From the IMG/VR virus record IMGVR_UViG_3300028965_000035: DNA of 4,234 nucleotides, one strand, 5' to 3'. Origin of the DNA: a virus. Taxonomy: Duplodnaviria; Heunggongvirae; Uroviricota; Caudoviricetes. Below, in pieces: positions 299 to 4,234 of this stretch. The notes below the pieces were generated by a model. The model did no database searches, was not told the origin of the DNA, and saw nothing but the letters and a program-made list of their open reading frames with translations. The translations under genes and the position numbers were made by a program. Within the stretch, counting starts at the first letter, position 1, and each line of letters opens with the position of its first letter.

Positions 299-619
299 TC
301 AGTGCAGTACCGGCGCTTTTATGTGACGGGCACAGAGTTCATCCATCACAACCAGCCCGAGAAAGGACAGCGACGGCGCGGCCTTCAGGGGGCCGGATTC
401 CATTAAATCTTCCAGCAGGGCACAGGCTATCTGACGCCCTTTTTCCTCACCGTGCTGGCGCAGATAAAAGCCTTCCAGCTCAGCGGCGATGGCCGCTTCC
501 AGTGACTCAAGGGTGAGATGCGGGTAGCGGTGCTGACGTTCGCACACGGTCAGCCAGGCACAGGCGACAGCGCGACGGTAAAGGGCAGCGCGTAAGACGG
601 GCGGTAAGGGTGTTTTCAT
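299..619 (-). CDS. Hypothetical protein, 106 aa (P4 orf106 equivalent), function unknown
   Basis: Complete ORF in the track. ATG at 619-617 preceded by GGGAGG (complement of 627-632) with 7-nt spacer. TGA stop at 301-299 lies inside the alpha Shine-Dalgarno region. Length and position match P4 orf106. Confidence 0.75.
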
Positions 620-700
620 TTGTTTTCCTCCCTGTGACAGATGACTGCATTCCGTGCCGGTTGCATTAACTGATAAGGCATATCTGCGTCTCCTGAAGAC

Positions 701-726
701 GTGCGTATCCCTGCGCGAATACGCAC
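701..726. other. Intergenic stem-loop between orf151 and orf106 (8-bp stem GTGCGTAT/ATACGCAC, 10-nt loop)
   Basis: Perfect inverted repeat 701-708 / 719-726. On the + strand it is followed by T-rich sequence (727-750), so it looks like an intrinsic terminator for antisense transcription. On the - strand it sits 29 nt after the orf151 stop with no U-run. Confidence 0.4.
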
Positions 727-754
727 ATTTAATTTTTCGGGTGTCGTTTTTTAA

Positions 755-1210
755 TTACAGATAATTGCGGTAACTGTTATCCGGGGTGATTTCCGGGTCA
801 GGCTCCGTGCGGGGAATTTCCCGCCATTCCCGCGCCACCGGTGCCGCCCGGCTGGCCGGAACAGTGTCCTGCGGGTAAATATCCAGATATTTCTCCCGCC
901 ATTTCTGTAATTCCGGGTCTCCGGCCATTTCTTTCAGTACCGCATGCCGGTTTACGGGGCTGCGTTTAAACAGGTCAGGACGGTCACAGGTAAATTCCCG
1001 CAGAAAACGCCCCAGCGGGATGTCTGTGGTGCGCCCGTCAGCGAGGATACGCACAAGGATACTGAATTTACGGCGGTACGGGTTCCAGACAATGTCCGGG
1101 CAGCGGTACGGCATTTCCCACGGAATACCGTCTTCCAGAATGCCGACCACGGCCACATCGGGAAAACCGGCAGAACGGTAAATCTCACCGGGCTGGGGAA
1201 AATCAAACAT
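755..1210 (-). CDS. Hypothetical protein, 151 aa (P4 orf151 equivalent), function unknown
   Basis: Complete ORF in the track. ATG at 1210-1208 overlaps the end of the upstream epsilon frame (ATGTTTGA, 8-nt overlap). TAA stop at 757-755. Length and position match P4 orf151. Confidence 0.75.
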   Translation of the reverse strand: MFDFPQPGEIYRSAGFPDVAVVGILEDGIPWEMPYRCPDIVWNPYRRKFSILVRILADGRTTDIPLGRFLREFTCDRPDLFKRSPVNRHAVLKEMAGDPELQKWREKYLDIYPQDTVPASRAAPVAREWREIPRTEPDPEITPDNSYRNYL

Positions 1211-1919: not shown

Positions 1920-1941
1920 AAAAAAAGACGCATGGCGCGTC
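1920..1941 (-). terminator. Terminator-like hairpin plus U7 in the PLE leader, immediately downstream of seqA
   Basis: Minus-strand RNA GACGC-GCCAU-GCGUC (5-bp GC-rich stem, 1941-1927) followed directly by UUUUUUU (1926-1920). The stem is short, so this is more likely a weak or conditional terminator than a constitutive one. Confidence 0.4.
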
Positions 1942-1996: not shown

Positions 1997-2034
1997 GCGG
2001 AAAAACTATATCCGCAAATGCCGGAAAAAGGCAA
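1997..2034 (-). promoter_or_regulatory. PLE-like constitutive sigma70 promoter of the leftward operon
   Basis: Minus strand -35 TTGCCT (complement of 2029-2034), 18-bp spacer, -10 TATAGT (complement of 2005-2010). Predicted start near 1997, between the vis stop and seqA. Confidence 0.5.
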
Positions 2035-4117: not shown

Positions 4118-4178
4118 GGGCTGCCGGTTAACCCCGGCCGTTGCGTATTACCGTGAAGGAGATCGGTGAGTAACATCG

Positions 4179-4234
4179 ATGGAGATCGGTTCGTGTCACT
4201 TTCACAGAACCGTTTTTAAATTACCTTCACTGAT
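4179..4234 (+). CDS. 5' end of the next late-operon ORF (psu position in P4), truncated by the window end; product not assignable from 18 codons
   Basis: Only frame open to the window end after delta. First ATG at 4179 (MEIGSCHFHRTVFKLPSL...). The nearest strong Shine-Dalgarno, AAGGAGA at 4156-4162, is 16 nt upstream, which is too far for a good site. Identity uncertain. Confidence 0.3.
   Translation, partial: MEIGSCHFHRTVFKLPSL

What the first reader, a model, noticed from the sequence alone, without database searches (positions are those of the whole stretch)
701..726. Strong hairpin between orf151 and orf106 that looks like a terminator on the non-coding strand
A perfect 8-bp stem with 10-nt loop is followed by a T-rich run only on the + strand, where no gene is annotated. 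It may terminate antisense transcription entering the alpha operon, or act as a processing or stability element of the leftward mRNA. The 135-bp gap is the largest intergenic space inside the leftward operon.
Basis: seen in the sequence. Interest (0 to 1): 0.4.

Follow-up and report, generated by a model that had tools for sequence, protein, structure and literature searches.

The report
Conserved mRNA stem-loop after P4 orf151
The inverted repeat is real and conserved, but it most likely folds in the leftward (coding-strand) mRNA of a P4-type satellite phage, marking the end of the epsilon-orf151 part of the operon rather than stopping antisense transcription; it is an ordinary element that was already annotated in phage P4 in 1984.

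Summary
The window is a P4-type satellite, 97% identical to phage P4. The 8-bp/10-nt-loop inverted repeat at 701-708/719-726 exists as described. On its own it is not beyond chance, and the + strand fold is weak (-10.7 kcal/mol). In the leftward mRNA the same site forms a 12-bp stem with two G-U pairs and a GCGCAG hexaloop (window 699-728, -17.5 kcal/mol, z -4.1).

Comparison across 16 diverged lineages shows:
- The hairpin is more conserved than the orf151 coding DNA.
- Five pairs carry compensatory changes.
- Five further pairs change on one side only, through G-U, so 90% of cells pair on the mRNA strand against 77% on the + strand.
- The GCRCAG loop never varies.
- The hairpin is single-copy. 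Apart from three divergent loci without it, it always lies 3' of an orf151 homologue and 4-5 nt before the next gene's Shine-Dalgarno sequence. It is absent from P4-like elements that lack epsilon-orf151.

Best reading (0.45): a sense-strand intercistronic stem-loop that defines or protects the 3' end of a short kil-to-orf151 mRNA. The PLE start to the hairpin base is 1300 nt.

The + strand terminator reading keeps about 0.2. The T-rich tail is present in most lineages but not all, and nothing feeds that strand. GenBank X02534 already annotates the dyad.

The parts
699..728 (-). 12-bp stem-loop in the leftward mRNA: 5' arm 728-717, hexaloop GCGCAG 716-711, 3' arm 710-699.
   Evidence: Folds (-17.5 kcal/mol, z -4.07). 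Covariation. Covariance-model hit at window 695-732 on the - strand, 58 bits. GenBank X02534 annotates an 'imp. region of dyad symmetry' equal to window 696-730.
729..754 (-). A-rich, G-poor unstructured spacer between the orf151 stop codon and the hairpin. It reads as the T-rich run on the + strand.
   Evidence: Sequence; unpaired in the fold. The length varies (24-29 nt) and the sequence is less conserved than the hairpin. It is A-rich in most lineages but not in L306 or L312.
755..1210 (-). orf151, the gene whose 3' end the hairpin follows. Its stop codon TAA is at 755-757.
   Evidence: ORF list; P4 annotation. Homologues precede every copy of the hairpin.
690..694 (-). Shine-Dalgarno AGGAG, 4-5 nt 3' of the hairpin. 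It serves whichever cistron comes next.
   Evidence: TCAGGAG is invariant in alignment A1, with no indel between the hairpin and the SD in any lineage.
616..681 (-). 21-codon mini-ORF ([21 protein letters not shown]) whose stop TGA overlaps the cnr ATG (ATGA at 616-619). It is an in-frame remnant of the 75-86-aa gene that lies here in related elements.
   Evidence: PMC8628076 notes a 75-aa family between epsilon and alpha that is absent from P4.
299..619 (-). cnr (orf106, DUF5375), the first replication-control gene downstream of the hairpin.
1998..2034 (-). PLE promoter-like site (TTGCCT-18-TATAGT, 2034-2005) and the inferred transcript start near 1998. From there it is 1300 nt to the 3' base of the hairpin (699).
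   Evidence: Promoter scan; the Rfam isrK hit starts at 1998. The distance is arithmetic.

Best explanation
The inverted repeat acts as RNA in the leftward (- strand) polycistronic mRNA of the P4 left (alpha) operon. It forms a stable 12-bp stem with a conserved GCRCAG hexaloop. The stem sits about 27 nt after the orf151 stop codon and 4-5 nt before the ribosome-binding site of the next cistron.

It has no U-tract on this strand, so it is not a classical intrinsic terminator. The most likely role is an intercistronic 3'-end and stability element. Transcripts that stop or are cleaved downstream, for example by Rho-dependent termination or endonuclease cleavage in cnr-alpha, would be trimmed back by 3' exonucleases to the base of the stem. 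This would leave a stable short mRNA covering kil, cI, epsilon and orf151 (about 1.3 kb from PLE, about 0.4 kb longer from PLL). Read-through RNA would continue to t-alpha. The result would be higher expression of the epsilon-orf151 block than of the replication genes cnr and alpha.

Shown here:
- the structure and its preference for the mRNA strand;
- purifying selection and compensatory changes;
- strict linkage to the epsilon-orf151 block;
- the 1300-nt distance from PLE.

Inferred:
- that RNA 3' ends form at the hairpin;
- that exonuclease blocking, rather than another RNA-level function, is the selected activity.
For: 1. Strand asymmetry in the window. The - strand RNA forms 12 bp at -17.5 kcal/mol (z -4.07). 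The + strand forms 8 bp at -10.7 kcal/mol (z -2.2).

2. Strand asymmetry across lineages. Over 16 lineages the mRNA-strand fold is the more stable in 13. It lies between -13.7 and -20.5 kcal/mol in all but the three decayed copies (L054, L305, L310). The + strand fold ranges from -7.1 to -17.5.

3. Covariation.
- Five pairs carry changes on both sides (U-A to C-G, A-U to U-A, U-A to A-U in L304 and L312).
- Five more vary on one side only, through G-U.
- 90.1% of cells are paired; the covariation score of 0.260 is reached by 0 of 500 shuffles.
- The same structure on the opposite strand gives 76.6% paired and a score of 0.123.
- L309 has U-G and G-U at two adjacent mid-stem pairs. These pair only in the mRNA sense.

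4. Purifying selection. Hairpin nucleotide identity to the window is 88-100% in lineages whose orf151 coding DNA is 60-81% identical.

5. Position.
- The hairpin was found in 172 fetched loci and, in diverged form, in seven more of the ten divergent orf151 loci fetched later.
- In the distinct flank variants and diverged lineages whose flanks were read, it follows an orf151 homologue, whatever gene comes next: an 85-86-aa gene, a mini-ORF, or cnr directly.
- It is absent from P4-like elements without epsilon-orf151.

6. A functional analogue. Rahnella-type elements lack the homologous hairpin but carry an unrelated GC-rich hairpin, flanked by an A-tract and a U-rich tail, at the same place after orf151.

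7. Geometry. The PLE start (about 1998) to the 3' base of the hairpin (699) is 1300 nt, and PLE to the annotated t-alpha is about 4.1 kb. From memory, and not verifiable with the paper tools: Deho et al. 1988, J Virol 62:1697, reported 1.3- and 4.1-kb transcripts from PLE.
Against: No transcript 3'-end data could be consulted, so the key step is inferred.
- The hairpin-to-SD distance is more rigidly conserved than the stop-to-hairpin distance. That fits a role for the downstream cistron equally well.
- The loop and lower stem are conserved in sequence, not only in structure. A simple exonuclease block does not require this.
- One clade (L054, L305, L310) has a weakened stem, and L308 has none, so the element is dispensable in some lineages.
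- The compensatory Watson-Crick changes are uninformative about strand. The strand call rests on G-U pairs from a limited number of independent events.
- The A-rich upstream flank, which gives a U-tract on the other strand, recurs in most lineages. This model does not explain it.
Confidence: 0.45

Rival explanations
1. Intrinsic (Rho-independent) terminator on the + strand. The 8-9-bp stem followed by AUUUAAUUUUU stops antisense or read-in transcription before it runs into orf151, epsilon and the cI immunity region.
For: - The U-rich tail directly follows the + strand stem in the window (8 U of 12) and in 11 of the 13 lineages whose central hairpin is intact (6-10 U).
- In L038 the consensus scan calls it terminator-like on that strand: 9 pairs, loop 8, tail ATTTTATTTT.
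- The unrelated hairpin of Rahnella-type elements also has its better U-tract (UUUUUUAUUG) on that strand.
Against: - The + strand stem is weak in the window (-10.7 kcal/mol, 10-nt loop; 23rd percentile of windows). It falls to about -7 to -8 in L005 and L309 while the mRNA-sense stem stays strong.
- Wobble changes are tolerated only on the other strand.
- The tail is not U-rich in L306 (AAAAUGUUUAAA) or L312 (UAAUAACAAAAU).
- No + strand gene lies between P4 1746 and 9030, and no + strand promoter-like site lies upstream in the window or in L038.
- Elements without epsilon-orf151 have the same operon and immunity region but no such hairpin.
Confidence: 0.2
2. A 5' element of the downstream cistron. 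The hairpin plus the adjacent SD form a unit. After cleavage in the AU-rich spacer, or as an insulator within the polycistronic RNA, the unit protects the 5' end of the cnr-alpha mRNA and keeps the ribosome-binding site free. Translation of the next gene then starts de novo at the one junction in the operon that is not translationally coupled.
For: - The hairpin and TCAGGAG are 4-5 nt apart with no indel in any lineage, while the upstream spacer varies in length.
- The hairpin-SD unit is kept whatever gene follows: an 85-86-aa gene, a 21-24-codon mini-ORF, or cnr.
- All other junctions in the operon overlap.
- The SD is unpaired, or only weakly paired, in the predicted folds.
Against: - The hairpin co-occurs with orf151, not with the downstream gene family. 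The same 75-aa gene and cnr occur without it in most P4-like elements.
- RNase E-like RN|WUU motifs in the spacer are not conserved (read from the sequences).
- From memory only: no stable 2.8-kb cnr-alpha RNA is described for P4.
Confidence: 0.2
3. A DNA-level site. The palindrome, with its invariant centre GCRCAGG and invariant TGC/GCA arms, would be bound by a protein of the phage, the helper or the host.
For: - The loop and lower stem are sequence-invariant across 16 lineages.
- A third exact GTGCGTAT lies inside orf151 at 1047-1054.
Against: - Half-site counts are at chance: 5 observed against 2.8 +/- 1.6 expected.
- An 18-bp centre-to-centre spacing is atypical for a dimer.
- It does not fit TGT-N12-ACA (delta/Ogr boxes), the CRP site, or the P4 Int arm sites (inspection).
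- Changes through G-U that preserve RNA pairing are unexpected for a DNA palindrome.
Confidence: 0.05
4. A relic with no current function: a leftover of the recombination seam that joined the epsilon-orf151 block to the rest of the operon.
For: - It lies exactly at the boundary of a block that is present or absent among P4-like elements.
- It is decayed in L054, L305 and L310 and lost in L308.
- IS66-family elements have inserted into the gap, one of them into the loop.
Against: - It is more conserved than the adjacent coding DNA.
- It carries compensatory changes.
- It is restructured but still stable in L306 and L312.
Confidence: 0.1

Closest known systems
The 'imp. region of dyad symmetry' annotated in phage P4 record X02534 (essential region; from memory, Lin 1984)
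   Same: It is the same sequence at the same place: X02534 3656-3690, equal to window 696-730, between ORF151 and the next gene. The window is 97% identical to P4.
   Different: The record gives no function. The complete-genome records X51522 and NC_001609 annotate t-alpha and the cII terminator but nothing here.
Intercistronic or 3' stem-loops that block 3' exonucleases and set differential mRNA stability within operons, such as the REP hairpins in malE-malF and the hairpins to which Rho-terminated transcripts are trimmed (established knowledge, not re-read here)
   Same: A stable sense-strand hairpin without a U-tract. It sits just 3' of a stop codon, far enough (27 nt) to fold behind a terminating ribosome, between a promoter-proximal block and promoter-distal genes.
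   Different: It is single-copy and specific to this element, not a dispersed REP. The loop sequence is invariant. It sits unusually close (4-5 nt) to the next SD. The RNA ends were not measured.
P4's own intrinsic terminators, t-alpha (P4 4604-4628) and the cII terminator (1720-1749)
   Same: A stem-loop next to a T-run within the same element.
   Different: Those have GC-rich stems with short loops and T6-T7 directly 3' on the coding strand. Here the T-run is on the non-coding strand only, the core stem is half A-T, and the loop is 6-10 nt.

Membership tests
Rho-independent terminator, leftward (mRNA) strand | U-rich tract immediately 3' of the stem on the transcribed strand | tested here: not met
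   The sense tail is CUUCAGGAGACG, with 2 U of 12. All 16 lineages have 1-3 U.
Rho-independent terminator, + (non-coding) strand | Stable G+C-rich stem with a short loop | tested here: inconclusive
   In the window the stem is 8 bp (4 G-C) with a 10-nt loop, -10.7 kcal/mol, z -2.2. It was missed by the loop 3-8 consensus scan. In L038-type lineages it is 9 bp with an 8-nt loop, -14 kcal/mol, and is called terminator-like. In L005 and L309 it is about -7 to -8.
Rho-independent terminator, + (non-coding) strand | U-tract directly after the stem | tested here: met
   The window has AUUUAAUUUUUC. Eleven of the 13 intact lineages have 6-10 U of 12. It fails in L306 and L312.
Rho-independent terminator, + (non-coding) strand | A transcription unit or promoter on that strand that it would terminate | tested here: not met
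   No + strand gene lies between P4 1746 and 9030. No promoter-like site lies on that strand upstream in the window or in L038. Pervasive or read-in transcription cannot be excluded.
Rho-independent terminator (either strand) | Measured termination or RNA 3' ends at the site | not testable with these tools
   No transcript data were available, and the P4 transcript papers are not held.
mRNA 3'-end protective or intercistronic stability stem-loop | Stable hairpin on the coding strand just 3' of a stop codon, outside the footprint of a terminating ribosome | tested here: met
   12 bp, -17.5 kcal/mol. It starts 27 nt after the orf151 stop (UAA), which is nt 1-3 of the fold.
mRNA 3'-end protective or intercistronic stability stem-loop | Structure maintained by selection in the RNA sense | tested here: met
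   Five pairs carry double changes and five carry one-sided wobble changes. 90.1% of cells pair in the sense strand against 76.6% in the antisense. The hairpin is more conserved than orf151 coding DNA.
mRNA 3'-end protective or intercistronic stability stem-loop | Transcript 3' ends at the base of the stem, and a longer half-life for the upstream segment | not testable with these tools
   Only indirect evidence: PLE to the hairpin is 1300 nt, and a 1.3-kb PLE transcript is recalled from memory.
RNase III processing site | About two helical turns (20 bp or more) of double-stranded RNA | tested here: not met
   12 bp in the window and at most 14-17 bp in other lineages.
REP/BIME-type dispersed palindromes | Many copies per genome or element | tested here: not met
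   The covariance model R1 finds one copy per element in the window and in whole P4, and none in 26 elements of the type without epsilon-orf151.
Any curated Rfam family | Match to a covariance model | tested here: not met
   At E up to 1 only C4, isrK and c4-a1b1 match, at 1735-2011. Nothing matches at 620-760.

The most novel reading that the evidence does not exclude
The hairpin, with its invariant GCRCAG loop and invariant lower stem, could be a sequence-specific RNA operator rather than a passive exonuclease block. A phage, helper or host factor would bind it to set how much transcription or translation passes from the epsilon-orf151 block into the replication genes cnr-alpha. It would then be a regulated gate for P4 copy-number and replication control.

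A variant of this reading: it is a true antisense terminator that becomes important when Psu inhibits Rho late in infection.
Probability: 0.1. Interest if true: 0.45.

Novelty: already known. Interest (0 to 1): 0.2.

Why it matters
The element probably explains how one promoter in P4-type satellites gives more of the early genes (kil, cI, epsilon, orf151) than of the replication genes (cnr, alpha). It also marks the boundary of the epsilon-orf151 block that distinguishes P4 proper from most P4-like elements. This refines the map of a classical system. It opens no new question.

Tried and rejected
- **P4 transcript literature.** The 1.3/4.1-kb transcript sizes are therefore from memory only.
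- **Rfam.** No family matches the gap.
- **Pairing with CI RNA.** The duplex energy of CI RNA with the gap (-50 kcal/mol) is weaker than the window average (-63.7 +/- 10.8). The method is uninformative at these lengths.
- **DNA half-site search.** GTGCGTAT with up to 1 mismatch is at chance level.
- **Known DNA sites, by inspection.** The Int arm repeats (T/A)GGGGGCAT are unrelated. TGT-N12-ACA (delta/Ogr), CRP (TGTGA-N6-TCACA), the Cox box and the IHF consensus do not fit.
- **CsrA.** CAGGGAU in the loop and 3' arm, plus the SD AGGAG 17 nt away, resemble a two-site CsrA target. But GGA is lost in 5 of 16 lineages (GGGCUU, GGGUUU, GGGUUG).
- **Lin's '-10 consensus'.** TGTAAT at window 754-759, on the - strand, has G at the critical -11 position and no usable -35. 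The promoter scan does not call it, and it becomes TGTAGT in L055.
- **Second small hairpin.** GUCUU-CAG-GAGAC, which would cover the SD, is not conserved.
- **GTG-started 36-aa ORF through the hairpin (616-726).** It has no SD. The real start is the internal ATG.
- **Second viral-contig scan with an orf151 profile.** It added no new diversity.

Full report
**What the window is.** The 4234 bases are 97% identical to phage P4 (X51522/NC_001609, positions 6686-10838; window coordinate = P4 coordinate minus 6685).

On the - strand lie:
- the start of alpha (1-283);
- cnr/orf106 (299-619);
- a 135-bp gap (620-754);
- orf151 (755-1210);
- epsilon (1203-1490);
- the cI/immunity region, with Rfam C4, isrK and c4-a1b1 hits at 1735-2011;
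- the PLE promoter-like site (2034-2005);
- vis/orf88 (2070-2336).

The ori repeats, sid and delta follow on the + strand.

**Checking the observation.** The arms 701-708 and 719-726 are perfectly complementary with 10 nt between them. A T-rich run follows on the + strand only. The gap is 135 bp. The description is correct.

Taken alone it is not remarkable. Perfect 8-bp inverted repeats with short loops are expected 0.7 times in such a window, and 2 are seen. The + strand fold is only -10.7 kcal/mol (z -2.2, or -0.83 with its tail) and sits at the 23rd percentile of all 40-nt windows.

The same site folded as the leftward RNA is different. Two G-U pairs and two more Watson-Crick pairs extend the stem to 12 bp with a GCGCAG hexaloop (window 699-728). 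It gives -17.5 kcal/mol, z -4.07, in the top 2.7% of windows.

The feature is not new. GenBank X02534 (P4 essential region) already annotates an 'imp. region of dyad symmetry' equal to window 696-730, without a function. The whole-genome records annotate t-alpha and the cII terminator but nothing here.

**Where the hairpin occurs.**
- 56 loci encoding Cnr relatives were fetched from one genome per species.
- 160 loci encoding orf151 relatives were fetched from viral and metagenome contigs.
- 10 more divergent orf151 loci were fetched by exact-protein look-up.

Most P4-like elements have the order vis, eta-type ORF, a 75-aa gene, cnr, alpha. All their junctions overlap, and they have no epsilon, no orf151 and no hairpin. 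A covariance model of the hairpin finds nothing in 26 such loci.

Elements that carry epsilon-orf151 have the hairpin directly after orf151. The spacer is 24-29 nt in the P4-like lineages and longer in L304 and L312. The sequence TCAGGAG and an ATG follow 4-5 nt later, with no indel in that interval.

What follows varies:
- an 85-86-aa relative of the 75-aa gene (L038, L046, L051, L305, L306, L310);
- a 21-24-codon in-frame remnant of that gene (this window, P4, L137);
- cnr itself (L055, L309, L311).

It is still an ORF with its own SD and an ATGA overlap with cnr. The hairpin is single-copy in the element.

**Selection.** In lineages whose orf151 DNA is 60-81% identical to the window, the hairpin is 88-100% identical; it is 75% in the Cedecea locus L054.

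An ungapped alignment of 16 lineages gives these counts for the 12-bp structure:
- 90.1% of cells paired;
- five pairs with changes on both sides (in Yersinia ruckeri L304: U-A to C-G, A-U to U-A, U-A to A-U; in Serratia fonticola L312: U-A to C-G);
- five more pairs that vary on one side only, through G-U;
- a covariation score of 0.260, reached by none of 500 shuffles and well above every slid register.

The number of independent events is small, so this is good but not overwhelming evidence.

The loop GCRCAG and the lower stem UGC/GCA never vary.

The element is not indispensable. One clade (L054, L305, L310) has a weakened middle stem. Hafnia L306 has rebuilt the upper stem (CCCU/AGGG). 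Serratia marcescens L308 has no hairpin in a 44-nt gap.

**Which strand.** Watson-Crick compensation says nothing about strand, but wobble pairs do.
- Counted on the + strand, the same structure has 76.6% of cells paired and a score of 0.123.
- The Edwardsiella locus L309 carries U-G and G-U at two adjacent mid-stem positions. Its mRNA-sense fold is -13.7 kcal/mol and its antisense fold -7.9.
- The C-to-U variant found in four E. coli-type loci turns G-C into G-U in the mRNA and into A-C on the other strand: -15.0 against -7.1.
- The mRNA-sense energy is -13.7 to -20.5 kcal/mol in the 13 lineages whose hairpin is intact. The antisense energy there wanders from -7.1 to -17.5.

This favours function as RNA in the leftward transcript.

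**The terminator look.** On the mRNA strand there is never a U-tract (1-3 U of 12), so it is not an intrinsic terminator for the operon. P4's real terminators look quite different.

On the + strand, 11 of the 13 intact lineages have 6-10 U of 12 after the stem, and the scan calls L038's copy terminator-like. Against it:
- the tail fails in L306 and L312;
- the stem is weakest on that strand;
- all P4 genes from 1746 to 9030 are leftward;
- no + strand promoter-like site lies upstream;
- elements without epsilon-orf151, which would need the same protection, lack it.

I keep this reading at about 0.2.

**Most likely mechanism.** The hairpin closes the epsilon-orf151 block in the mRNA.

It starts 27 nt after the stop codon, so it can fold behind a terminating ribosome. 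It is stable and has no U-tract. It is the only uncoupled junction in the operon.

Such stem-loops are known to halt 3' exonucleases and to mark the mature 3' ends of transcripts terminated or cleaved further downstream. This is established knowledge that was not re-read here.

The PLE -10 hexamer ends at 2005 and the isrK-type leader hit starts at 1998. From there to the 3' base of the stem (699) is 1300 nt, and to the annotated t-alpha about 4.1 kb. I recall 1.3- and 4.1-kb PLE transcripts from Deho et al. 1988. I could not open that paper, so this is a lead, not evidence.

Rahnella-type elements carry an unrelated GC-rich, terminator-like hairpin at the same position after orf151. This suggests that ending or punctuating transcripts here is the conserved function.

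I put 0.45 on this model. A role for the downstream cistron (5' protection, or insulation of the ribosome-binding site) gets 0.2, because the hairpin-SD spacing is so rigid. A DNA-binding site gets 0.05 and a functionless relic 0.1.

**Verdict.** The finding is a real, selected, but ordinary RNA stem-loop in a very well-studied phage, and it was already annotated as a dyad symmetry. Its headline interpretation (antisense terminator) is the weaker of the two it offered. Interest is low (0.2). The only mildly unusual point is the invariant loop, which would suit a specific ligand.

Noticed in passing
window 616-681 (- strand): A 21-codon mini-ORF ([21 protein letters not shown]) has its own SD (AGGAG, 690-694) and a stop that overlaps the cnr start (ATGA). 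It keeps the start and the C-terminal frame of the 75-86-aa gene found here in other P4-like elements. L137 has an independent 24-codon remnant with the same ends. This suggests that translational coupling into cnr is being preserved (PMC8628076).
   Followed up: partly
window about 714 and about 749; loci L059 (E. coli 98E11) and L060 (E. coli RM9387): Two independent IS66-family insertions interrupt the orf151-cnr gap. One breakpoint falls inside the hairpin loop and the other just after the orf151 stop.
   Followed up: partly
L303 1962-2121 and L307 1910-2069 (Rahnella-type P4-like elements): These elements lack the homologous hairpin. Instead an unrelated GC-rich 9-bp hairpin (GCGCCG...CGGCGC), flanked by AAAAAA and a U-rich tail, follows orf151, and the primase gene comes next without cnr.
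   Followed up: partly
alignment A3 (window 711-716 and homologues): The hexaloop GCRCAG is invariant in all 16 lineages, including those whose stem has changed. This is more than a passive structural element needs.
   Followed up: partly
window 4139-4234: Homology to P4 ends just after delta. The last 96 bases are 99% identical to Escherichia phages PhiR12_1, PhiR12_2 and PhiR12_4 rather than to the P4 delta-psu spacer.
   Followed up: no
window 1927-1941 (- strand): A terminator-like hairpin, GACGCGCCATGCGTC followed by T7, lies in the PLE leader inside the isrK and c4-a1b1 Rfam hits. It is presumably the known early terminator of the P4 immunity circuit.
   Followed up: no
L007-L053 (most Cnr-encoding loci): Most P4-like elements in other Enterobacterales lack both epsilon and orf151. 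In them the eta-type ORF, a 75-aa gene, cnr and alpha are joined by overlapping stop/start codons. The epsilon-orf151-hairpin block therefore behaves as an optional module.
   Followed up: partly
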